Of a stretch of DNA of 60,518 bases, positions 2,344-56,539 are shown piece by piece. Source of the DNA: Acidimicrobiia bacterium (GTDB lineage: Bacteria; Actinomycetota; Acidimicrobiia; Acidimicrobiales; Aldehydirespiratoraceae); the NCBI GenBank assembly GCA_024421085.1, contig JAHQYN010000006.1, positions 1-60,518 of the forward strand, in the 5' to 3' direction. The number at the start of each line of letters is the position of its first letter. Within the stretch, counting starts at the first letter, position 1. The notes under the pieces were generated by a model that saw only the letters and a list, made by a program, of their open reading frames with translations, had not been told where the DNA came from and made no database searches. A program made the translations under genes and the position numbers.

Positions 2344-3051
2344 ATGCCAACAACAACAGACCATGCAATAGCGGGCGTGACCGGTGACATCCCCGCAATC
2401 CTGTGCATACCCGAGGGCGGCAGCGGCCCCGGTGTCGTGCTGATCCAGGAGATCTTCGGAATCAACGACTACATCCTCAGCGTTGCCGAGCGGCTGGCCA
2501 ACGAGGGCTATGTCGTGCTGGCGCCCCACATGTATTGGCGGATCCAGCATCCGTTCCGTGTCGACGCACGGGGCCCCGAAGACTTGGGGCCGGCTTTCGA
2601 AATCGCCAACCAGCACCCGCCCGAAGACGGTGTCGCCGACGTCGGCGCCGGGCTCGACCACCTCCGAGGCCGTTCCGATGTGCAGGGTGGCGTTGCTGTG
2701 ATGGGGTTCTGCTTCGGTGGCTCGATGACCTATCTCGCAGCGGCTGCCCATGAGCCGACCTGCGCGGTGTCGTACTACGGCTCGATGATCGGTGAGAACC
2801 TCGACAAGGCGCCCGCAGTCACCTGCCCGATCCTGTTCCACTTCGGCGACGATGACCCGTTCCTGCCCAACGAGCACGTCGACGGCCTGCGGGCAGCCAC
2901 CGAGGGTATGTCAAACGTCGAGATTCTGGTGCAGCCAGGTGCGGGCCACGCATTCGACAACGACAAGAACCCGATGTTCGCGAACCCCTCTGCCGCCGCT
3001 GCCTCCTGGGCACGCACCTCAGAGTTCCTCAGAACCCATCTGAACGCCTAG
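2344..3051 (+). CDS. Dienelactone hydrolase family protein
   Basis: QEIFG, GFCFGG nucleophile and GHAF motifs; ATG at 2344. Confidence 0.92.
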   Translation: MPTTTDHAIAGVTGDIPAILCIPEGGSGPGVVLIQEIFGINDYILSVAERLANEGYVVLAPHMYWRIQHPFRVDARGPEDLGPAFEIANQHPPEDGVADVGAGLDHLRGRSDVQGGVAVMGFCFGGSMTYLAAAAHEPTCAVSYYGSMIGENLDKAPAVTCPILFHFGDDDPFLPNEHVDGLRAATEGMSNVEILVQPGAGHAFDNDKNPMFANPSAAAASWARTSEFLRTHLNA

Positions 3052-3069
3052 GTGGAACCACCGTGGTCC

Positions 3070-3165
3070 GTTACTCGCCTAATATGTTAGTCACCTAATA
3101 CGTTAGTTAGCTAGTATAGTAGGTACCTAGTATAGGAGTCACCTAGTACAGTAGGTAACTAACCA
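3070..3165. repeat. Six degenerate 16-bp tandem units with palindromic TAG-N4-CTA core; probable operator array
   Basis: Units: gttactcgcctaatat / gttagtcacctaatac / gttagttagctagtat / agtaggtacctagtat / aggagtcacctagtac / agtaggtaactaacca. AT-rich; ends 22 bp before the ATPase ATG. Confidence 0.85.
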
Positions 3166-3187
3166 CGCAGTTCATTCGAGGGGGCTC

Positions 3188-4663
3188 ATGGCGCGCAGAC
3201 AACTGATCGACCGAGAGACGGAAGCGGCCAAGTTGAGGAGCCTGCTCGACAGCGGCAAACCCTCACTGGCCCTCGTCCACGGACGCCGACGAGTGGGCAA
3301 GACCTTCCTGCTGTCTCAGCTCTGGCCCCCGCACCAGGTTCTGTTCTACTCAGCTTCTTCCACCACCCCGGCCATCAACCGGCGGGCTCTTGTCGAAGAA
3401 GCCGCCCGGTGGTCAGGCCAAGAACTCCGCTCCCAGGACCACCCCACTTGGCGCACGGTGTTTCGCACTCTGCTCGGCCTCCACCCCGACAAGCCGATCG
3501 TCATCGTGTTGGACGAGTTCCAATATCTTGCCGAAGGCGAGCGCGGGTTGCGAGAGGTCGCCTCGGAGCTGAATGCGGTATGGGAATCGCCGCCGCCTCG
3601 CTCGGCGGGCCTTGTGTTGGTGCTCTGCGGATCGGCGGTGCGCACGATGGAGGCTCTGGCCAGAGGAGGTTCTCCGCTCTACGGTCGGCTGGACGCACAA
3701 CTTCAGCTCGGCCCGTTCGACTATTTCGACGCTGGCCAGATGGTTGCCCACTATTCGCTAACCGACCGGGTACGCGCCTACGCCGCGTTCGGAGGGCTCC
3801 CTGCCAACCTCGCAGCAGTCGACGACACCCGGAGTCTCGGAGACAACATCGCCGAACTGCTGTTGTCTCCCCACGGCGTGGTCCGTGCTCGACTGCTGAC
3901 CGAGATCGACCAGGAGGAGGGGCTGCGCCAGACCTCTCTGTACCGGGCTGTCTTGGCCGGCATCGGACTCGGCGCCCGAACCACCGGCGAGATCGCCGCA
4001 AGGATGGGCAGGAAATCCGACAGCTCCCTCAAGCGGTTCATAGACCAGCTCGAAGACATGGCCTATCTGGTACGCGAGGTGAACTTCGGTGCTTCCCCGC
4101 AGCGGGGAACGCGCTACCGCCTGGCCGACCCGGCGGCGCGCTTCCACTACGGGATCGGGCTGCAAGCGGAGTCCGTGGTGGCCACCCTGGGCCCGAAAGC
4201 CGCTTGGGAAACCTGGATCGAGCCTGAGGCGTTTCCTGCCTATGCAGGACGTCAGGTCTTTGAGGACGTGGCCCGACAGGCCTGCCGTCGCTGGGGTCCG
4301 GGGCAAGGGCTTCCAACGGTCGCCCAATGGGGCAGGTGGGCCGGCGCCGACCGAGCTCGAAAAGAGGTGGAGATCGATCTGGTCGGACGAACCCTCGTCG
4401 GCGAAATGGTCACCGGTTCGGTCAAGTTCCGCAGCCGCCAAGCCAATGCCAAGACCTACCTCGACCATGTCGGCGCACTGCAGCGACTCGCCGACAGCGG
4501 CCTCGGCTGGGCCAAAGAAGCGCTGGCGCCCCGATCAGCGTTCTGGTTCGTCTCCGCGGCAGGCTACGCTCCGTCATTCTACGAAGTGATGCAGCGGGGC
4601 CGCCCCACCATCACCTGGACCATCGAAGACCTGTTCCCAGCGGAAACGGCTGACGCAGCCTAG
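3188..4663 (+). CDS. AAA ATPase with wHTH and C-terminal PD-(D/E)xK-like (DUF234-type) domain
   Basis: Walker A GRRRVGKT, Walker B IVLDEFQ, SPLYGR, central HTH-like TTGEIAARMG, C-terminal EVEIDLVG...GSVKF. Confidence 0.88.
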   Translation: MARRQLIDRETEAAKLRSLLDSGKPSLALVHGRRRVGKTFLLSQLWPPHQVLFYSASSTTPAINRRALVEEAARWSGQELRSQDHPTWRTVFRTLLGLHPDKPIVIVLDEFQYLAEGERGLREVASELNAVWESPPPRSAGLVLVLCGSAVRTMEALARGGSPLYGRLDAQLQLGPFDYFDAGQMVAHYSLTDRVRAYAAFGGLPANLAAVDDTRSLGDNIAELLLSPHGVVRARLLTEIDQEEGLRQTSLYRAVLAGIGLGARTTGEIAARMGRKSDSSLKRFIDQLEDMAYLVREVNFGASPQRGTRYRLADPAARFHYGIGLQAESVVATLGPKAAWETWIEPEAFPAYAGRQVFEDVARQACRRWGPGQGLPTVAQWGRWAGADRARKEVEIDLVGRTLVGEMVTGSVKFRSRQANAKTYLDHVGALQRLADSGLGWAKEALAPRSAFWFVSAAGYAPSFYEVMQRGRPTITWTIEDLFPAETADAA

Positions 4664-4770
4664 TTCTGCGTCCGGTGTTGGACCCGGGCGTGGACCCGGG
4701 CGAACCGGACCTGGGTGAACCGGACCTGCACCTCAGAGTTCCTGAAAGCCCGTCGGCCCGCCCGAGATTG

Positions 4771-22969: not shown

Positions 22970-23298
22970 GAGCATGCGCGGACAGGCGAGAGCCTGTTGC
23001 GTTGACAGCGGTGCGCTTCCCGCTCTTGTTCGCTGCGCTCCGCTTCCCGCTCTTGTTCGCTGCGGTCCGCTTTCCGCTTTTGTTCGCTGCGGTCCGCTTC
23101 CCGCTCTTGTTCGCTGCGCTCCGCTTCCCGCTTTTGTTCGCTGCGCTCACGGGCTGCTCGGGCCACGGGCGGGGCTGCTCGGGCCGCGGGCGGGGCCGCT
23201 CGGGCCACGGGCGGGGCCGCTCGGGCCGCGGGCGGGGCGGCTCGGGCCACGGCCTCGCGCCGTATGGGCCGCGTTGTCCCACCCAATCGCTCGGCCTC
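22970..23298 (-). mobile_element. MITE copy 1, expanded by internal tandem arrays (5x27 bp, ~5x21 bp)
   Basis: Imperfect terminal inverted repeats GAGCATGCGCGGA / TCGCTCGGCCTC, flanking TGA duplication; homologous to 26039-26175. Confidence 0.8.
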
Positions 23299-30719: not shown

Positions 30720-33479
30720 TCAGGAGTTGGGCATGGTTCGCATCTTGGGGGGAAGCATCGGCCGGACCCAGGCGGCGAACGCGTCGGGGAGGCCGGCCAG
30801 ACGCCAGATGAACGTGACGGCCTCTGCTCGTGTCGTGGGGTTGTCGGGGGAGAAGGTCGTCGGTGAGGTGCCCGTGGTGATACCGTGCTCGACCATCCAA
30901 CGTACCGCGTCGCTGTAGTAGGAGCCTGCAGGCACGTCCTCGAAGGTCGAGTCGACGTTCGGTTCAGGCGTTCCGGCGAAGCGCCAGAGGAAGGTGGATG
31001 CTTGCGCCCTCGTCAATGTCATCTCTGGTGAGAAGGTCGTGGGCGAGGTTCCAGTGGTCACTCGGTATTCCGTCAGCAGGTGGACAGCATCGTGGTATGA
31101 AGCGTCAGCGGCGATGTCCTCGAAGTTGTTGCGCTTGTGCGGCCTCTTGCGTCCTTCGAAACGCCAGAGGATCTCGGCGAACTCGGCCCGGTTGATCTGG
31201 TCGTGGGGCCCGAGTCGCTGCGGGGCCGCGCCTGAGACGACCTCCTCGTTGGCCGCCCAGAGCACCGGCTCGTAGAAGTAGTCGTCGGGAGACAGATCGC
31301 TGAACTCGAAGACGGGCACCGCTTCGGGAGCGGGGTTGGTTGGCCATTCAATGGTGAACTGGGAGCCGACGGGTGGACGGCAGCCTTGAGCCGTCTTGCA
31401 GCCCCTCCAGATCGCATAGAACAGCCAGGCACCGTAGGGCTCGCCGTTGCGGCGCAGCGTCACCGACCTGCCCGCGTCGTGGACGGTGACCTCGGCGAAG
31501 AGGACGTGCCCCGACTTGGGAGCATTGGCGATGTCGATTCCACGCAGGGAGGTGATGTTGAGAGGCGCCTCCCCACCGACCGTGTAGTTGTTGAGCCAAC
31601 GCGTCAGCTCGGCGATGGAGTAGGAACGGGTCCAGGTGGCGTTGGGATTGCGCGCTCGGCCGGTTTCTGGATCAACCGCGGCGTCGAAAGGATCCGGCTT
31701 GGGGACCAGGAAGGGCAGGTCGACTCCGCCGGACCAGACGTCGGACGGTTTGGCAGTGTGTCCGCCGTTGCTCGAAGAGTAGAAGGCTTGAGCGATCCGC
31801 GGTTCATTGACGACAGTGGCCTCACCGTTCTGCGTCCCGCTGCCGGTCACGTCGCCTGTCTCGTCGTCGGTCCGCTGGGACGATCCGTCCTCGGCGCTGC
31901 CTTCGGTGTCAGGGCTTTCGGTTGTCGGGTTTGTGGTGTCAGGGTTTTGGGTTGTCGGGTTTGTGGTGTCAGGGTTTTGGGTTGTCGGGTTTGTGGTGTC
32001 AGGGTTTTGGGTTGTCGGGTCTTCGTTGGTCGCGATCTCGGCCTGATAGACGACGACCTCTGCCGCGGTCTCGTTGACGGCGTCGCACCATGAGTGCCAG
32101 ACACAACCCGACTCGCGGGCCCAGCCGGTGAACACCTGATCCGCGGTCGAGTCGTAGAGGTTGAAGGGCTCGTCGGCCCAGTCGCCCGCCGCCGCACGGT
32201 TCACGATCGTTGCGGCCGCATAACTGCGGGCTGCCACCGCCTGCGCCTTCAGTGCCTCGGCCGGCCAGTCGGTCGGCACTTCCTGGAGTCCGTAGAGGTA
32301 CTTCTCCATGTCGAGGTCGGCGACCACTACGCAGAACTCGAGACCGGTGCCGCAACGGTCGGGGGTGCTGCCGTTGAGCGGCACTCCCGCGGGATGCAGC
32401 AGGTAGCGCGCGCCCGCATATGATCCGAGGTTCGGACCGTCCTCGAACTCCTCGACCACGGCTCTCGTGCCGACCGTCTGCACAACCTCGAGTGCCGTGT
32501 TGAGACAGCGTGAGTCGTTGTCGCACAGGTCGGTGGTGACCCCGGCCGACTCGTCGGTGTACTCGGCATGCCAGCGTGCCCCGTCGTAGCGGGTGGTGAG
32601 CGGCAGGGTGCTCAGGCCGATCAACTGCCCACCCGCCTCGACACTGAGTTCCCATTTTCCCGGCCCGAGTTCGTCGAGCGGGGTGGAGATGGCTATCTCC
32701 TCGCGAACGCCGATCAGGACGTTGGGCGTGCCCGGTTGCACCCGCCTGAGGCGCGAATGCGTGATGCAGAACTCGAGTCCCGTGCCGCAGACATCGGGCG
32801 TGGCGCCGTCGACAGCCACGCCAGCAGGCCGCAGGAGGTATCGCCCCCCTAAATGTGAGCCGAGATTGGGACCGTCCTCGTACTCCTCGATCACCGCGCG
32901 GGTGCCGATCGTCTGGGCCACCTCGAGCACGGTGTTCTCACAGAGCGCCTGACCGTCGCAGACATCGGTGGTGGTCCCGGTGGTCTTGTCGGTGTACTCG
33001 GCGTGCCAGCGTGCCCCGTCGTAGTGGGTGGTGAGCGGCAGGGTGCTCACCCCGACCACCGTGCCGCCGACTTCGACCGACAGCTCCCACTCTCCGGGAC
33101 CGAGCTCCTCGAGCGGGGTGGAAATGGCAATCAGCTCCCGAACGCCGACGTCGACGTCGACGGTCTCGGGAACGCGGTCCGGGTCGAACTCCTTGAAGTC
33201 GGTTATCGGCGCGAGGGTCGTGCCGTCGTAGTAGAAGCTGAGGATCTTGTCGTAGGTATCGCCGGCGAGCGCGCGTCCGTAGGCGCCGTACTGGCTCAAC
33301 CCGACCGCGTGCCCGAAACCGCGGCCGTTCAGTACCACGAGGCTCGAGTCGCCGCCTTCAGCGCCGCCTTCAATGTCGCCGCCTTCAGGGCCGCCGTTCG
33401 CGTCGACCTGGGCAAACGCTGGTGAAGCCGCCAAGCACAACCCGAGCAGACAACACAGCAGTGATCGTGAGAATCTCAA
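30720..33479 (-). CDS. Secreted SpoIID/LytB-domain protein with three C-terminal SLH domains
   Basis: Signal peptide; GRGFGHAVGLSQYGA, EALKAQAVAARSYA, YSSSNGG; SLH repeats (TTGTSPTTFSP…TRA). Confidence 0.88.
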   Translation of the reverse strand: MRFSRSLLCCLLGLCLAASPAFAQVDANGGPEGGDIEGGAEGGDSSLVVLNGRGFGHAVGLSQYGAYGRALAGDTYDKILSFYYDGTTLAPITDFKEFDPDRVPETVDVDVGVRELIAISTPLEELGPGEWELSVEVGGTVVGVSTLPLTTHYDGARWHAEYTDKTTGTTTDVCDGQALCENTVLEVAQTIGTRAVIEEYEDGPNLGSHLGGRYLLRPAGVAVDGATPDVCGTGLEFCITHSRLRRVQPGTPNVLIGVREEIAISTPLDELGPGKWELSVEAGGQLIGLSTLPLTTRYDGARWHAEYTDESAGVTTDLCDNDSRCLNTALEVVQTVGTRAVVEEFEDGPNLGSYAGARYLLHPAGVPLNGSTPDRCGTGLEFCVVVADLDMEKYLYGLQEVPTDWPAEALKAQAVAARSYAAATIVNRAAAGDWADEPFNLYDSTADQVFTGWARESGCVWHSWCDAVNETAAEVVVYQAEIATNEDPTTQNPDTTNPTTQNPDTTNPTTQNPDTTNPTTESPDTEGSAEDGSSQRTDDETGDVTGSGTQNGEATVVNEPRIAQAFYSSSNGGHTAKPSDVWSGGVDLPFLVPKPDPFDAAVDPETGRARNPNATWTRSYSIAELTRWLNNYTVGGEAPLNITSLRGIDIANAPKSGHVLFAEVTVHDAGRSVTLRRNGEPYGAWLFYAIWRGCKTAQGCRPPVGSQFTIEWPTNPAPEAVPVFEFSDLSPDDYFYEPVLWAANEEVVSGAAPQRLGPHDQINRAEFAEILWRFEGRKRPHKRNNFEDIAADASYHDAVHLLTEYRVTTGTSPTTFSPEMTLTRAQASTFLWRFAGTPEPNVDSTFEDVPAGSYYSDAVRWMVEHGITTGTSPTTFSPDNPTTRAEAVTFIWRLAGLPDAFAAWVRPMLPPKMRTMPNS
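31905..32020. repeat. 30-bp tandem repeat (~3.9 copies) encoding a PTTQNPDTTN linker
   Basis: Unit ggtgtcagggttttgggttgtcgggtttgt. Confidence 0.95.
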
Positions 33480-34393: not shown

Positions 34394-35644
34394 ATGATCT
34401 TGAGCGTGCCCGACCCGGGCACGGACAGCGGTCCTCGCATCCTGGTCTGCGGCTGGTCGGGGGCAGGCAACATCGGCGACGAACTGCTGACTTCTGCTGT
34501 GGTCGAATCTCTGCGTTGCGCGGGGGCGGTCCCGGTGGTCGTCTCGCGGGACCCCCAAGCCACATCGGCCCTGCACGGCGTTGAGACCGTGGCTCGGGGC
34601 CCGCGGGGATGGCTCCGCGCACTGGCCGAAGGGCGCGGCGGCTCAGGCGTGAAGGAGGGCTCAGGCGTGGCGAAGGGCTCGGGCGGGGCGAAGGGCTCAG
34701 GCGTGGCGAAGGGCTCAGGCGTGGCGAAGGGCTCGGGCGGGGCGAAGGGCTCAGGCGTGAAGGAGGGCTCGGGCGGGGCGAAGGGCTCGGGCGGGGCGAA
34801 GGGCTCGGGCGGGGCGATAGACGGCGTGTGCATCGGCCCCGGTGGGATCATCCAGGACTGGACCAGCATCTGGAGCCTGCCGGGTCACCTTCTGGCGCCG
34901 CTCGGCCCGGCGCTGCGCGGTAGGCCCGTGGTCGGCGTGGGGCTGGGCGCCGATCCCTTGAAGCGCGGCTGGTCGCGGCGGATCCTTCGAACCCTGCTGC
35001 GCGACTCCCCCGTAGTGGTGCGCGATCGAGCATCAGCGGCGGCGATGGCTGCTGCCGGTGTCGACACCGCGGTCGGCGCGGACCTGGTGTTCGGCCTGGA
35101 CCTTGATGCGTTGCCGCGGCGCACGGAGATCGTCGTGGCCCTGGGACCGGGCGCAGCCCCGGGACCGCTGCGCCCCGCTGGCCGTTCGCTGAGCACTGAG
35201 GACCCCTCCCGGGTCGCTGCCGGGCTCGGCGCGCTCGCCGAGCGTCTCGGGGCAACGGTCGCCCTGGCCTGCTTCCGCGGCGGGCGCGACCGACAGTACG
35301 CCCAGCTTCTGGCTTCGCGGATCCGCCTGGACACCGAGATTCTGGGACCCGGCATCGATGCCCAGGTGGACCGAATCCGCTCCGCCCGGCTTTTGGTCAG
35401 CAGCCGCTACCACCCGGTAGTGATAGCTGCACGCAGCGGCACGCCCGCGATCGTCTGCTCGAATGAGGCCAAGCTCGGCTCGCTCGTCGCGCAACTCGAC
35501 AGTCCGCTGGTGGCGAGGGTCCAAGACTGGTCGCAGCTGGCGGCCTGCGAGGTGCCCGAACCGGGCGACCCGGTGGTCCCGCCCGGGGTCTCACTGCACC
35601 ACGACGCTCTGCGCGCGCTGGTGGCCGCCAGCGCGGCGCGCTGA
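34394..35644 (+). CDS. Polysaccharide pyruvyl transferase (CsaB-like)
   Basis: GWSGAGNIGDE, GPGGIIQDWTS, VRDRAS, ADLVF and SRYH motifs. Confidence 0.82.
   Translation: MILSVPDPGTDSGPRILVCGWSGAGNIGDELLTSAVVESLRCAGAVPVVVSRDPQATSALHGVETVARGPRGWLRALAEGRGGSGVKEGSGVAKGSGGAKGSGVAKGSGVAKGSGGAKGSGVKEGSGGAKGSGGAKGSGGAIDGVCIGPGGIIQDWTSIWSLPGHLLAPLGPALRGRPVVGVGLGADPLKRGWSRRILRTLLRDSPVVVRDRASAAAMAAAGVDTAVGADLVFGLDLDALPRRTEIVVALGPGAAPGPLRPAGRSLSTEDPSRVAAGLGALAERLGATVALACFRGGRDRQYAQLLASRIRLDTEILGPGIDAQVDRIRSARLLVSSRYHPVVIAARSGTPAIVCSNEAKLGSLVAQLDSPLVARVQDWSQLAACEVPEPGDPVVPPGVSLHHDALRALVAASAAR
34640..34819. repeat. 18-bp tandem repeat x10, in frame (GSG[V/G][A/K][K/E])
   Basis: Units such as ggctcaggcgtggcgaag and ggctcgggcggggcgaag. 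Confidence 0.95.
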
Positions 35645-37918: not shown

Positions 37919-38055
37919 GACCGCACACCGTACCCTGGTCAACCGGTCGCCATAATCCACCGGTCGCCATTTTCCGGGGGCGTGCCAGAAATCCCCATAC
38001 GCTCCAGAATCGACGAGCATGCCCAGCCGAACCAGCGCAACACCACCAGAGAATC

Positions 38056-38175
38056 GAACCTGCGAAGGGCGAATCCACGAAGGGCGAATCCACGAAGGGC
38101 GAACCTGCGAGGGGCGAATCTGCGTAGGGCGAATCTGCGAAGGGCGAATCTGCGAAGGGCGAATCCACGAAGGGC
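38056..38175. repeat. 15-bp tandem repeat x8
   Basis: Consensus gaatc(c/t)(a/g)cgaagggc; ends 6 bp before the enoyl-CoA hydratase ATG. Confidence 0.95.
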
Positions 38176-47945: not shown

Positions 47946-49187
47946 ATGACCGAAGAAGGACCGCGCAACCTGCGGGAGATGCTCGCCGCCGCCAAGGACA
48001 GGTCCGAGCTGATGGTCGATCTGGCGTACGCCGCGCTGTTCTTCGGCGACCCGGACATGGCTGAGGAGATCGCGGGCCTCGAAGAAGACATGAGCCACCT
48101 GGTTCACGACATGCGCGGCGTCTGTGTGATGGCTGTGCGTCACCCCCGTGAGTCGGAAGGGATGTCGTCGGTGCTCCAGGTGATCTCCGCTATCGAGCGC
48201 ATCGCCAACGATGCGGTCGACATCGCCCGCATCGTCACCCACCAACTGGGTATCCCAGCGGAGTTGGTGGCTGACCTGTCGGCTGCAGAGGAGGTGAGCC
48301 ACCGCGTGCTGGTCTCGCAGGGGTCGCGGCTCTCCCACCTGCCGTTGCGCGACCATGAGCTCCCGGTCCAGACGGGCATGCGCGTGATGGCCGTGCGCCG
48401 ACAGCAATGGATCACCGATGTCGACGGCGACACTGTGCTGATACCCGGTGATGTGCTGTTCCTGCGGGGGTCGCCCGACGGGATAGGGCGTTTGCGGGAA
48501 CTGGCCGGAGCGGCGCAATGGGATGCGCCGCGGCTGCCTGATGACCCCTTCGTCACAGACCTGGACCGGGCGGTCGACGTGCTGGTTGAAATGAAGAATC
48601 TCAGCGAAGTCGCGGTCGGGTTGGCGTATTCGGCGCTGGTCCTCGGCGACCTCGGGCTCGCCGCGGAAGTCCGTCACATCGAGGACCGCCTCGATGAAAT
48701 GAAGGACCGACTCGAGCTGTGGGTCCTTCGGGCTGCAGCGGAGAAGGCCGACCCCTCGCCGTTGCGGGGCCTGCTGCACTTGTCGCAAGCCGCTGAGGAC
48801 ATCGGCGACCAGGCCCAGGCCATGGTGTGGCTGATCGAGAAGCAAGAAGACGTCCACCCGATCCTGGAACTGGCCCTCGGCGACAGCGACGAGGTGGTGA
48901 TCCGGCTGCCGGTCCGTGCCGACAGCGAAGCCGACGGACGGCTCCTCTCGGAGTTGCGGCTCAACATCGAACCCGGGTTCACGGTGCTCGCCCTGCGGCG
49001 AGGCGCTCAGTACCTGTACCGACCCCGAGGCCGAGCCCGGCTCGCGGCCGGAGACGAGTTGATAGCGAGCGGCCCCGATGAAGGACGGGCACCGCTCGCC
49101 CGGCTCTGCGGATGGCGTTTGACAGACCCTGGCGGCGACGGAGAGGCGGAACTCGAGCCGATCCCGGCACCGCAGCCGCACGCCTGA
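47946..49187 (+). CDS. Tandem PhoU + TrkA-C domain protein
   Basis: Two repeats: SELMVDLAYAAL…ERIAND + RCK_C, and SEVAVGLAYSAL…EDIGD + RCK_C. Confidence 0.85.
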   Translation: MTEEGPRNLREMLAAAKDRSELMVDLAYAALFFGDPDMAEEIAGLEEDMSHLVHDMRGVCVMAVRHPRESEGMSSVLQVISAIERIANDAVDIARIVTHQLGIPAELVADLSAAEEVSHRVLVSQGSRLSHLPLRDHELPVQTGMRVMAVRRQQWITDVDGDTVLIPGDVLFLRGSPDGIGRLRELAGAAQWDAPRLPDDPFVTDLDRAVDVLVEMKNLSEVAVGLAYSALVLGDLGLAAEVRHIEDRLDEMKDRLELWVLRAAAEKADPSPLRGLLHLSQAAEDIGDQAQAMVWLIEKQEDVHPILELALGDSDEVVIRLPVRADSEADGRLLSELRLNIEPGFTVLALRRGAQYLYRPRGRARLAAGDELIASGPDEGRAPLARLCGWRLTDPGGDGEAELEPIPAPQPHA

Positions 49188-49314
49188 GGCCGCGTCACGC
49201 CTGAGGCCGCGTCACGCCTGAGGCCGCGTCACGCCTGAGGCCGCGTCACGCCTGAGGCCGCGTCACGCCTGAGGCCGCGTCACGCCTGAGGCCGCGTCAC
49301 GCCTGAGGCCGCGT
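49179..49314. repeat. Perfect 17-bp tandem repeat x8
   Basis: CACGCCTGAGGCCGCGT; first unit contains the upstream gene's stop codon. Confidence 0.97.
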
Positions 49315-56155: not shown

Positions 56156-56168
56156 TCGCCGCTCCGTC

Positions 56169-56426
56169 CGCTGCGGGTGTTGGTTGCCGGTTCGCGGTCC
56201 GCTTTCGTTGGTCTGGTTGTGACGGTTCGCTGCGGGTGTTGGTTGCCGGTTCGTCGTCCGCTTTCGTTGGTCTGGTTGTGACGGTTCGCTGCGGGTGTTG
56301 GTTGCCGGTTCGTCGTCCGCTTTCGTTGGTCTGGTTGTGACGGTTCGCTGCGGGTGATGGTTGCCCCGGTTCGTCGTCCGCTTTCGTTGGTCTGGTTGTG
56401 ACGGTTCGCTGCGGGTGATGGTTGCC
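56169..56426. repeat. 59-bp tandem repeat, 4 full copies plus a partial
   Basis: Units start at 56169, 56228, 56287, 56346 and 56407; no unique spacers. Confidence 0.95.
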
Positions 56427-56539
56427 GCCGATCGGTTGCCGGGATTGCGGACCGTTGGCCACAAGTCTGGTTGGAGAATTGCAGTCGGTTCTGCGGCTTT
56501 CCGATGGACCCATGGACCGGCACCGGAGTGCCGCCCTGT

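What the first reader, a model, noticed from the sequence alone, without database searches (positions are those of the whole stretch)
3070..4663. Phased array of six 16-bp palindromes directly upstream of a stand-alone ATPase-wHTH-nuclease gene
Seen: an AT-rich 96-bp island of six units at exact 16-bp period, most with a palindromic TAG-N4-CTA core (unit 4 contains perfect TAGGTACCTA), ending 22 bp before the ATG. Units vary in core and flank, unlike the near-perfect slippage repeats elsewhere in the window, which suggests selection on the palindrome and its spacing. Known: AAA ATPases form oligomers, and ATPase-nuclease fusions often act in defence. Inference: the array is a cooperative binding platform for the protein's own wHTH (16 bp is ~1.5 helical turns, so sites alternate faces). 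It could autorepress or sequester a toxic nuclease on its own locus, or be transcribed as a repeat RNA antitoxin. This is my best candidate for an uncharacterised system.
Basis: partly seen in the sequence, partly recalled or inferred. Interest (0 to 1): 0.8.

Follow-up and report, generated by a model that had tools for sequence, protein, structure and literature searches.

The report
Self-operator repeat array of ATPase-nuclease gene
The six 16-bp repeats are real and are most likely the docking sites through which a common but untested candidate antiviral ATPase-nuclease controls its own gene, which gives this protein family a concrete DNA target to test.

Summary
The array is real. Window 3070-3165 holds six 16-bp units, five direct and one inverted, ending 22 nt before the ATG. 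Its period-16 score is 38; 2000 shuffles reached at most 16.

The 491-aa gene has an AAA+ ATPase (Pfam ATPase_2), a winged helix and a PD-(D/E)xK-like domain. It matches the untested PADLOC defence candidate PDC-S27.

All eight orthologues at 87-96% identity keep the array at fixed offsets from the ATG, with 2-6 units. This holds where the upstream neighbour differs. The exact unit occurs nowhere else in 18 genomes of the genus.

The feature is family-wide. In 45 non-redundant relatives from bacteria and archaea, 25 have repeats exactly 15 bp apart upstream and 5 have them 16 bp apart. Shuffles give about 1. A second set replicated this (14 and 4 of 28). The window's clade always uses 16 bp, although unit sequences differ completely.

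One recognition-helix residue (283) tracks the repeat core: Lys with ACT-N4-AGT in 16 of 20 rows, against 1 of 66 for other residues.

Best reading: a private operator array read by the protein's own winged helix, giving autoregulation. An RNA-antitoxin role is not supported. No binding experiment exists. I found no published description, though earlier notes of this scan report the same theme.

The parts
3070..3165 (+). Array of six 16-bp units (AT-rich island) in the 136-nt spacer between the hydrolase stop (3051) and the ATG (3188)
3070..3149 (+). Five direct units starting at 3070, 3086, 3102, 3118 and 3134 (offsets -118, -102, -86, -70, -54 from the ATG). The two distal units (3070-3101) are extra relative to most orthologues
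3150..3165 (-). Inverted terminal unit. Read on the minus strand it contains GTTAGTTACCTA, the only exact copy of the genus consensus core in this genome
3102..3163 (.). Long imperfect palindrome (arms 3102-3124 and 3141-3163, 83% complementary), formed because the last unit is inverted
3147..3152 (+). TACAGT, a TAnnnT-type -10-like hexamer at the junction of the last direct and the inverted unit (TATAGT at the same place in orthologues). Possible promoter element: inference only, no TSS data
   Evidence: read; the sigma-70 scan found no plus-strand site
3178..3184 (+). Shine-Dalgarno-like GAGGGGG, 3 nt before the ATG
   Evidence: conserved as GAGGG in orthologues
3188..4663 (+). Gene for the 491-aa ATPase / winged-helix / PD-(D/E)xK-like protein (Pfam ATPase_2; PADLOC PDC-S27)
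3188..3817 (+). AAA+ ATPase domain (residues 1-210). Walker A GRRRxGK[TS] and Walker B DE are invariant in 47 of 47 family representatives
3932..4123 (+). Winged helix-turn-helix (residues 249-312). The recognition helix is residues 279-290 (nt 4022-4057) and holds R283 at the specificity-linked column
4298..4627 (+). PD-(D/E)xK-like C-terminal domain (residues about 371-480). E359, E395, D397 and K413 are kept; S411 stands where most relatives have Glu
3014..3029 (+). Left copy of the 16-nt direct repeat GCACCTCAGAGTTCCT, inside the 3' end of the hydrolase gene, flanking the inserted cassette
4728..4743 (+). Right copy of the same 16-nt repeat, a relic of the hydrolase 3' end. Array plus gene lie between the two copies

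Best explanation
The array is a private operator. Each 16-bp unit is a docking site for the winged helix of the protein encoded just downstream. The units cover the gene's own promoter region, so the protein sets its own level, most likely by repression. The 16-bp pitch is set by how neighbouring protomers of this AAA+ protein pack along DNA, about one protomer or one symmetric pair per unit. The protein belongs to the ATPase_2 / PDC-S27 family, a candidate antiviral ATPase-nuclease. Array plus gene form a portable one-gene cassette, inserted here between two convergent metabolic genes. Shown: the array, its conservation, its uniqueness, the family-wide phasing, the clade-specific pitch, and the link between helix residue 283 and the repeat core in other clades. 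Inferred: physical binding, the direction of regulation, the stoichiometry, any role of ATP, and the antiviral function.
For: (1) All 8 same-genus orthologues at 87-96% identity keep the array at fixed offsets from the ATG, with 2-6 units and the last unit inverted. A ninth, at 61% identity, has a related repeat. (2) The array stays with the gene where the upstream neighbour differs (L009, L010, L011). Empty sites exist in G012 and G002, where the hydrolase and TauD genes abut. (3) In 18 genomes of the genus, every exact GTTAGTTACCTA lies in such an array. One-mismatch hits elsewhere are no more frequent than for the reversed-pattern control. Six of the nine genomes without a close orthologue have no hit at all (G002, G005, G006, G009, G013, G016); G008, G011 and G012 have isolated one-mismatch hits only. 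(4) Family-wide: of 45 representatives of 70%-identity clusters, 25 have a direct 9-mer pair (at least 8 of 9) exactly 15 nt apart in the 150 nt upstream, 5 at 16, 10 at 30 and 4 at 31. Shuffles give about 1. At distance 15, control regions give 1 (further upstream), 4 (downstream) and 1 (CDS). This replicated in 28 new clusters: 14 at 15 and 4 at 16, against CDS control 0 and 1. (5) Pitch is clade-specific. In 86 rows it is 15 in 49 and 16 in 12, and 15 versus 16 needs only 3 changes on the tree. In the window's clade (at least 39% identity) 10 of 11 rows use 16 bp although their unit sequences are unrelated. (6) Reader domain. Of 462 alignment columns, the one best tied to ACT-N4-AGT cores is residue 283 in the recognition helix. 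Eight of the top 20 columns lie in the winged helix, which is 63 of 462 columns (p 0.0026). Lys283 goes with at least one ACT-N4-AGT site in 16 of 20 rows, against 1 of 66 for other residues. Inside one 70% cluster, K283 (L094) has ATACTCTCAAGTAT and T283 (L076) has ATATTCTAGAATAT, a symmetric change on both half-sites. A partial Mantel test favours the winged helix (rho 0.166, 6 of 500 permutations reach it) over the AAA domain (-0.163). (7) Relatives' middle domains match DNA-binding HTH families: HTH_20 in 7 of 24 and MarR_2 in 4 of 24. After the two ATPase_2 crystal structures, the best fold matches are archaeal Orc1/Cdc6 bound to DNA. (8) Array k-mers do not recur within 1.5 kb on either side in 28 loci (189 hits against 203 for the control), so the arrays are not paired element ends.
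Against: No binding, expression or TSS data exist for this locus. The two RNA-library contigs that match lie inside the CDS only, and they are contigs, so they show nothing about the array. The phylogeny-aware test of residue 283 against the core is one-directional but underpowered. It found 5-6 independent pairs going the same way, none the other way in nearly all pairings, and 2-3 uninformative, with median sign-test p 0.0625. The Fisher values are not corrected for relatedness. The residue-core link comes from other clades: the window's protein has R283 and I found no k-mer significantly tied to Arg. The nuclease domain also shows some partial correlation with the motif (31 of 500 permutations), so it could contribute to reading the quasi-palindromic cores. 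In STAND-type relatives the winged helix is a regulatory module, not a DNA reader (fold matches to CED-4, Apaf-1 and Avs3). By my threshold, 20 of 86 rows show no periodic array. The consensus promoter scan found no plus-strand sigma-70-like site in the array, although this organism's promoters may not fit that consensus.
Confidence: 0.68

Rival explanations
1. The array is mainly an assembly or holding platform and only secondarily a regulator. The ATPase polymerises along the phased units, one step per 15/16 bp, as AAA+ initiators do on their site arrays. This DNA-bound oligomer either keeps the nuclease inactive until a trigger or serves as the active sensing state. Control of transcription would be a by-product.
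For: The pitch is conserved within clades while unit sequences diverge completely, which is what a lattice set by protein-protein contacts would give. Unit number varies from 2 to 6 among close orthologues without loss of the gene. The fold resembles Orc1/Cdc6-DNA complexes and STAND oligomerising ATPases. Walker A and B motifs are invariant.
Against: Nothing here separates this from plain autorepression. The arrays always lie in the promoter-proximal 150 nt and nowhere else near the gene, which is what a regulatory site needs and more than a storage site needs. The oligomer prediction could not be run because the queue was full (see Tried and rejected).
Confidence: 0.15
2. Another factor binds the array, not the encoded protein. 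Candidates are a host transcription factor, or a nucleoid-associated silencer of AT-rich foreign DNA acting on an AT-rich island in a GC-rich genome.
For: The island has 39% G+C in a window of roughly 60-70% G+C. The cassette is an insertion. No direct evidence shows that the encoded protein binds.
Against: The exact unit is absent from genomes of the genus that lack the gene and has no other clustered sites in those that have it. Phased arrays also accompany the family in AT-rich Firmicutes and in archaea, where AT-richness is not distinctive. Unit sequence tracks a residue of the family's own recognition helix. The only gene common to all these contexts is the ATPase gene itself.
Confidence: 0.07
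3. The repeats act as RNA. They would be a tandem-repeat antitoxin of the type III toxin-antitoxin kind, or a structured leader that controls translation.
For: Tandem repeats directly upstream of a possibly toxic nuclease gene recall ToxI/ToxN. In several Firmicutes relatives the repeats lie downstream of a TTGACA-N17-TATAAT-like promoter and so would be transcribed (sequences, read by eye).
Against: No Rfam match was found at E up to 1 other than a chance snoRNA hit in the CDS. The RNA fold is no more stable than shuffles (z -0.43; 56 of 200 shuffles fold at least as well). No terminator-like site lies between array and ATG. In other relatives the same kind of repeat sits over or upstream of the -35 box. 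Units occur in both orientations. Units of 15-16 nt are much shorter than the roughly 36-nt units of known type III antitoxins (recalled, not checked). The protein has no ToxN-like endoribonuclease domain.
Confidence: 0.04
4. The array is a neutral slippage product with no function.
For: Copy number varies among orthologues. The window holds many other tandem repeats.
Against: Units differ from each other yet keep core and register. The array is retained at fixed offsets across 87-96% orthologues. The same phasing recurs in unrelated sequence in dozens of independent clusters.
Confidence: 0.02

Closest known systems
PADLOC phage-defence candidate PDC-S27 (Pfam ATPase_2 PF01637 with a DUF234-type PD-(D/E)xK domain; COG1672)
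   Same: The protein matches PDLC04984 (PDC-S27) at E 1.1e-33 over residues 5-399, and ATPase_2 at 49.5 bits against a cutoff of 33.2. It has the same ATPase plus PD-(D/E)xK architecture described for S27 (passage of PMC12988326).
   Different: The papers I could search describe S27 only as an abundant, experimentally untested single-gene candidate (passages of PMC12988326 and of bioRxiv 10.1101/2024.01.29.577857). None mentions upstream repeats or a DNA target. The window's clade has Ser where most members have the Glu of the ExK motif. It also uses a 16-bp pitch, not the 15-bp pitch of most members.
AAA+ initiators with arrays of their own sites beside their own gene: archaeal Orc1/Cdc6 with ORB boxes, bacterial DnaA with DnaA boxes in the dnaA promoter (textbook knowledge, recalled)
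   Same: An AAA+ module is followed by a winged helix. After the two ATPase_2 structures, the best fold matches are Orc1/Cdc6-DNA complexes 2v1u and 2qby. Multiple phased sites lie next to the protein's own gene.
   Different: No NCBIfam Orc1/Cdc6 model matches. The gene is accessory: close orthologues occur in 8 of 17 other genomes of the genus, and it lies in an inserted cassette. It carries a nuclease-like domain. The units are 15-16 bp and abut one another, with no unwinding element identified.
Controller (C) proteins and C-box operators of type II restriction-modification systems; also the wHTH regulators BrxR and CapW of defence systems (recalled)
   Same: The logic is the same: a helix-turn-helix reads palindromic operators over the promoter to hold a potentially harmful nuclease at a safe level.
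   Different: Here the regulator, the ATPase and the nuclease-like domain are one polypeptide. The operator is an array of 2-6 phased units, not one or two dimer sites.
Type III toxin-antitoxin systems (ToxIN and relatives)
   Same: Tandem repeats lie directly upstream of a single gene that may be toxic.
   Different: No terminator, no stable RNA fold and no Rfam match were found. Units occur in both orientations, their position relative to promoters varies, and there is no ToxN-type RNase.
Plasmid iterons with their Rep proteins
   Same: Directly repeated short sites are bound by the product of the adjacent gene, with autoregulation.
   Different: The locus is chromosomal, between metabolic genes. 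There is no Rep-family match. Homologues on plasmids are annotated only as ATP-binding protein, mostly on large replicons. The small records in the phage collection are unverified linear scaffolds.

Membership tests
Pfam ATPase_2 (PF01637) | HMM score above the curated gathering cutoff | tested here: met
   49.5 bits against a cutoff of 33.2, residues 7-210; 24 of 24 aligned relatives match
Pfam ATPase_2 (PF01637) | Intact P-loop and Walker B | tested here: met
   GRRRxGK[TS] and DE are invariant in 47 of 47 representatives, including the window's protein
PADLOC PDC-S27 | Match to a PDC-S27 HMM | tested here: met
   PDLC04984 at E 1.1e-33 (114.9 bits, residues 5-399 on profile positions 3-397 of 474); PDLC04985 at E 3.6e-15. 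PADLOC's own thresholds and system rules were not applied.
PADLOC PDC-S27 | Protection against phage | not testable with these tools
   The literature calls it a candidate with validation pending (PMC12988326 passage)
Pfam DUF234 (PF03008) / PD-(D/E)xK nuclease | HMM match to DUF234 | tested here: not met
   No DUF234 hit for the window's protein at E up to 0.1. DUF234 was found in 3 of 24 aligned relatives and Mrr_cat in 1 of 24.
Pfam DUF234 (PF03008) / PD-(D/E)xK nuclease | PD-(D/E)xK fold | tested here: inconclusive
   The C-terminal model has pLDDT 82.9. The Foldseek matches are weak (best E 2.2e-3), but the listed ones are mostly PD-(D/E)xK nucleases: NucS/EndoMS, MspJI, AF1548, McrC, Can2, HamA. 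No PDB sequence match was found.
Pfam DUF234 (PF03008) / PD-(D/E)xK nuclease | Catalytic E...D...(D/E)xK residues | tested here: inconclusive
   E359, D397 and K413 are present, as is E395. The (D/E) of the (D/E)xK motif is S411 here; across 47 representatives it is Glu in 35, Ser in 8 and Ala in 3. Activity cannot be judged from sequence.
Archaeal Orc1/Cdc6 initiators | Match to the Orc1/Cdc6 family model | tested here: not met
   0 NCBIfam families matched at E up to 0.01. There is only fold-level resemblance, with TM 0.30-0.35.
Type III toxin-antitoxin | Repeat array followed by a terminator, then an endoribonuclease toxin gene | tested here: not met
   No terminator-like site lies between 3165 and 3188. 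The protein is an ATPase_2 protein with no ToxN-like match.
Type III toxin-antitoxin | Repeats act as processed structured RNA | tested here: inconclusive
   Fold z-score -0.43 and no Rfam family. No RNA data cover the array.
Autoregulatory operator bound by the adjacent gene's product | Sites conserved with the gene, absent elsewhere in the genome | tested here: met
Autoregulatory operator bound by the adjacent gene's product | Site sequence covaries with the protein's DNA-reading residues | tested here: inconclusive
   The raw association at residue 283 is strong (16 of 20 against 1 of 66), but phylogenetically independent pairs give a median p of only 0.0625. The evidence comes from clades other than the window's.
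Autoregulatory operator bound by the adjacent gene's product | Physical binding and an effect on transcription | not testable with these tools
   Needs EMSA or footprinting and reporter assays

The most novel reading that the evidence does not exclude
The phased array is not just an operator. It would be the template on which this ORC-like ATPase builds a DNA-bound oligomer with a clade-fixed step of 15 or 16 bp per protomer. In that state the nuclease domains are held in check on the cell's own marked DNA. Invading DNA or another trigger would draw protomers off the array, which at once derepresses the gene and releases active nuclease. That would be a one-gene immune sensor whose off state is stored on its own promoter.
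Probability: 0.15. Interest if true: 0.8.

Novelty: new variant of a known kind. Interest (0 to 1): 0.58.

Why it matters
PDC-S27 proteins are among the most common candidate immune genes. One survey counted 3503 in archaea and 4562 in bacteria (PMC12988326 passage). Yet in the papers I could search, nothing is known about what they bind or how they are controlled.

This analysis gives the family a concrete DNA ligand: a private array of 15- or 16-bp units on its own promoter. It also gives a candidate specificity residue (column 283 of the recognition helix) and a natural swap pair to test it (L094 against L076). The pitch difference between clades can be used to probe how the protomers pack.

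It also matters for annotation. AT-rich phased repeats next to AAA+/winged-helix genes have been read as replication origins in archaea (for Methanococcales, section 3.4 of PMC4009838). Arrays of this kind offer a different explanation for some such calls.

The mechanism class, a regulator sitting on its own promoter, is ordinary. The novelty lies in the family and in the phased, clade-locked architecture.

Tried and rejected
1. Homodimer or oligomer prediction (complex prediction, two copies, alignment A1) was never accepted. The queue was full, so there is no result of any kind.

2. RNA evidence. Two RNA-library runs each gave one contig, 95-99% alike, inside the CDS only (3699-3894 and 3569-3801). 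This says nothing about the array or a TSS, and the contigs may come from relatives.

3. Transposon-end or paired-site idea. Array k-mers are not enriched elsewhere within 1.5 kb in 28 loci (189 hits against 203 for the control).

4. Regulon idea. No clustered or exact sites lie outside the arrays in 18 genomes.

5. General palindrome geometry. The 3-N4-3 form is the most enriched 3-mer geometry upstream (1.7 times shuffles), but other spacings are also enriched (1.2-1.5 times), so this is not decisive.

6. A base-specific partner for Arg283, the window's residue. No 5-mer was significantly tied to R, T or H at column 283. By eye, several unrelated R283 clades carry TTAG-type cores, but I do not claim this.

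7. Small-replicon idea. Matches in the phage collection of 4-8 kb are unverified linear scaffolds without annotation.

8. Sequence search of the C-terminal domain against PDB found nothing meaningful (best E 0.23).

9. Literature. The searches were 'DUF234' (swamped by DUF2345), PF01637/PF03008/Arch_ATPase/PDC-S27, DUF234 plus ATPase, the PDC source paper, PAB2304/SSO1545/2QEN/2FNA and COG1672. None returned a paper that mentions upstream repeats or a DNA target for this family.

10. The careful ML tree did not finish. A quick IQ-TREE and FastTree were used in its place.
Full report
OBSERVATION. The spacer between the stop of a dienelactone-hydrolase gene (TAG at 3049-3051) and the ATG at 3188 holds an AT-rich island (39% G+C) at 3070-3165. 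The island is made of six 16-bp units starting at 3070, 3086, 3102, 3118, 3134 and 3150. Tandem Repeats Finder reports period 16, and period 32 for part of it. The repeat finder places five copies in register at spacings of 16, 16, 16, 16. A simple period-match score is 38 at period 16. Across 2000 dinucleotide-preserving shuffles of the island the mean was 8.5 and the maximum 16. Four of the six units carry TAG-N4-CTA, and the perfect TAGGTACCTA is at 3120-3129. The sixth unit is inverted relative to the first five, which creates a long imperfect palindrome (arms 3102-3124 and 3141-3163). A Shine-Dalgarno-like GAGGGGG lies at 3178-3184.

THE GENE. ORF 3188-4663 encodes 491 aa. Pfam gives ATPase_2 (49.5 bits, cutoff 33.2) over residues 7-210. 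NCBIfam gives nothing. PADLOC gives PDC-S27 at E 1.1e-33. An AlphaFold2 model built on a 24-sequence alignment has pLDDT 88.5. It shows an AAA+ core, a helical lid, a winged helix (residues 249-312, helix 279-290 in the recognition position), a long helix, and a C-terminal alpha/beta domain. Foldseek's best matches are the two ATPase_2 crystal structures 2qen and 2fna. These are followed by archaeal Orc1/Cdc6 bound to origin DNA (2v1u, 2qby) and by STAND ATPases. The middle domain of relatives matches DNA-binding HTH families (HTH_20 in 7 of 24, MarR_2 in 4 of 24), and DUF234 is detected in 3 of 24. A separate model of the C-terminal domain (pLDDT 82.9) gives only weak Foldseek scores (best E 2.2e-3). 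However, the listed matches are mostly PD-(D/E)xK nucleases: NucS/EndoMS, MspJI, AF1548, McrC, Can2 and HamA. Across 47 family representatives, E359 and D397 are invariant and K413 is present in 44. The acidic residue of the ExK motif is Glu in 35, but Ser in 8, including the window's clade. Some active enzymes of this fold are said to have Ser there (recalled, not checked), so activity is open. The neighbours are metabolic genes.

THE ARRAY TRAVELS WITH THE GENE. A search of 61 related genomes found close orthologues (87-96% identity) in 8 of the 17 other genomes of the genus. It also found one at 61% identity, plus a roughly 28%-identical paralogue family. All eight close orthologues carry the same kind of array directly upstream. 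Direct units sit at -86, -70 and -54 and an inverted unit at -40. There are one or two extra distal units in L004 and in the window, and only two units in L010. The genus consensus unit is GTTAGTTACCTAnTAT. The array is retained where the upstream neighbour differs (L009, L010, L011).

Genomes G012 and G002 show the empty site. There the hydrolase and TauD genes converge and abut. In the window, array plus gene lie between two copies of a 16-nt piece of the hydrolase 3' end (3014-3029 and 4728-4743). Other orthologous loci show a shorter duplication of the hydrolase end. So this is an inserted one-gene cassette.

In 18 genomes of the genus, every exact GTTAGTTACCTA lies in such an array. One-mismatch hits elsewhere are isolated and no more frequent than hits to the reversed pattern. 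Six of the nine genomes without a close orthologue have no hit at all. A DNA contig from a sponge metagenome spans 2959-3201 without a difference, though that run may be the assembly's own source.

A FAMILY-WIDE FEATURE. The paralogues in the same genus also have AT-rich repeats directly upstream, with different unit sequences. I fetched 80 loci from genome contigs, covering bacteria and archaea. The nearest named relatives are Candidatus Poriferisocius, Candidatus Poriferisodalis and Acidimicrobiales MAGs. I clustered all 106 proteins at 70% identity into 47 clusters. Of the 45 representatives with enough upstream DNA, 25 have a direct 9-mer pair (at least 8 of 9) exactly 15 nt apart within 150 nt upstream. 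A further 5 have one at 16 nt, 10 at 30 and 4 at 31. Dinucleotide shuffles give about 1 at each distance. At distance 15, control regions give 1 (further upstream), 4 (downstream) and 1 (coding). A second, independent sample from metagenome contigs replicated this. Of 28 clusters made only of new loci, 14 have a pair at 15 nt and 4 at 16 nt, against CDS controls of 0 and 1. Array k-mers are not enriched elsewhere within 1.5 kb of the gene (189 hits against 203 for the control, 28 loci). In Firmicutes loci, read by eye, the repeats lie either over the -35 box or just downstream of the -10 box of sigma-70-like promoters. That placement suits DNA operators better than an RNA element.

PITCH IS CLADE-SPECIFIC. 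Over 86 rows (one per 70% cluster and residue-283 state, from 180 loci), the best period is 15 in 49 rows, 16 in 12, none in 20 and other in 5. On a FastTree tree, 15 versus 16 needs only 3 changes. A quick IQ-TREE of the first 47 rows put 5 of the 6 period-16 rows in one clade with support 100. In the window's clade (at least 39% identity to the window's protein) 10 of 11 rows use 16 bp, although their unit sequences have nothing in common. Examples are GGCATGCTGGTAGTCA in L116 and CTATACAATCGTGATA in L117. A pitch that stays fixed while the letters change points to a constraint from the protein's geometry.

WHICH DOMAIN READS THE UNITS. Motif similarity (6-mer cosine) between 36 clusters was compared with per-domain protein identity while controlling for overall identity. 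The winged helix gave the highest partial correlation (0.166; 6 of 500 permutations reach it). Its recognition helix gave 0.114 (6 of 500), the nuclease domain 0.104 (31 of 500) and the AAA domain -0.163.

A column scan asked which of 462 alignment columns best separates clusters that have at least two ACT-N4-AGT cores (8 of 47). The top column is residue 283 in the recognition helix: Lys in 8 of 8 such clusters against 6 of 39 others. Eight of the top 20 columns lie in the winged helix, which is 63 of 462 columns (p 0.0026). In the larger set, Lys283 goes with at least one ACT-N4-AGT site in 16 of 20 rows, and other residues in 1 of 66. These Lys283 rows include Thermococcus, haloarchaea, Treponema, Firmicutes, Bifidobacterium and Coriobacteriia. 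Within one 70% cluster, L094 (Lys) has ATACTCTCAAGTAT, whereas L076 (Thr) has ATATTCTAGAATAT, a symmetric change on both half-sites.

The phylogeny-aware test is only borderline. Among 6-8 independent pairs, the site changes the same way in 5-6, the other way in none in nearly all pairings, and not at all in 1-3. The median sign-test p is 0.0625. For the window's own residue, Arg283, I found no significant base partner.

RNA ALTERNATIVE. There is no Rfam match in 2900-3400 apart from a chance hit in the CDS. The RNA fold of 3066-3190 is no better than shuffles (z -0.43). No terminator-like site lies between the array and the ATG. Two RNA-library contigs match only inside the CDS.

MECHANISM. 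The best-supported reading is a private operator array. The protein's winged helix docks on each unit, neighbouring protomers pack at a clade-fixed step of 16 bp, and occupancy of the promoter region sets the gene's own expression. TACAGT at 3147-3152 (TATAGT in orthologues) is a TAnnnT-type hexamer at the centre of the terminal palindrome. It could be the -10 element, which would make repression the natural outcome. This step is inference, and the consensus scan found no plus-strand sigma-70 site. Whether ATP drives cooperative assembly, and whether the array also stores or restrains the nuclease, cannot be decided here.

WHAT IS KNOWN. The family is catalogued: ATPase_2, and DUF234 as PD-(D/E)xK family 76 in PMC3424549 (passage read). 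PDC-S27 was added to PADLOC by guilt-by-embedding (passages of bioRxiv 10.1101/2024.01.29.577857). PMC12988326 describes S27 as abundant, enriched in archaea, an ATPase fused to a PD-(D/E)xK domain, and pending validation (passages). Six searches found no paper that mentions upstream repeats or a DNA target. Supplements were closed.

Earlier AI notes of this scan describe the same theme in other genomes, for example e1-1351597 and e1-2409046 for this family, and several for PDC-S01. I used them as leads. Their ACT-N4-AGT claim and their one-residue covariation claim were re-tested here on my own data.

VERDICT. The array is real and conserved. It is very probably the cis-acting site of its own gene product. 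It is ordinary in logic (autoregulation), but it is undescribed in print for a very common and untested defence-candidate family. It also has an unusual clade-locked 15/16-bp lattice. Interest is moderate to high.

Noticed in passing
window 3014-3029 and 4728-4743; L111 (G012), L112 (G002): Array plus gene form an inserted cassette of about 1.7 kb between convergent hydrolase and TauD genes. It is flanked by a 16-nt duplication of the hydrolase 3' end. Two genomes of the genus show the empty site, with the two genes abutting.
   Followed up: partly
window 4692-4728: GC-rich 15-bp tandem repeat (GGACCTGGGCGAACC, 2.5 copies, 90% matches) between the gene's stop and the duplicated hydrolase end. 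It is absent from the other orthologous loci's downstream regions as printed.
   Followed up: no
G000:C85 (locus L028): The window's own genome holds a paralogue (about 28-34% identity) that reads only 283 aa with an aberrant tail, probably truncated or frameshifted. It still has its own upstream AT-rich repeat.
   Followed up: no
L014, L017-L027 (same genus): The paralogue family carries its own upstream arrays with different units, for example five TTAAGTTAAGTGGAC-like units in L027. One genome can therefore hold two family members with distinct private arrays.
   Followed up: partly
window 23014-23252, 31905-32020, 34640-34817, 38055-38175, 49179-49314, 56166-56427: There are many GC-rich tandem repeats, including a perfect 17-bp x 8.0 array at 49179-49314 and a 59-bp x 4.4 array at 56169-56427. 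They are unlike the AT-rich degenerate array studied here.
   Followed up: no
window 32331-33148: A 435-bp unit is repeated 1.9 times at 76% matches (TRF score 1009).
   Followed up: no
L010 (G007), upstream of the orthologue: A run of about 38 G lies roughly 220 nt upstream of the gene. It may be an assembly artefact or a junction. The array there has only two units.
   Followed up: no
L110 (G005): At the same hydrolase 3' site this genome has different, unrelated sequence in place of the cassette or the TauD gene. This suggests the site is a recurrent insertion point.
   Followed up: no
plasmid collection: Homologues occur on 157 plasmid records, many of them haloarchaeal megaplasmids and Rhizobium plasmids, annotated only as 'ATP-binding protein'.
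   Followed up: no
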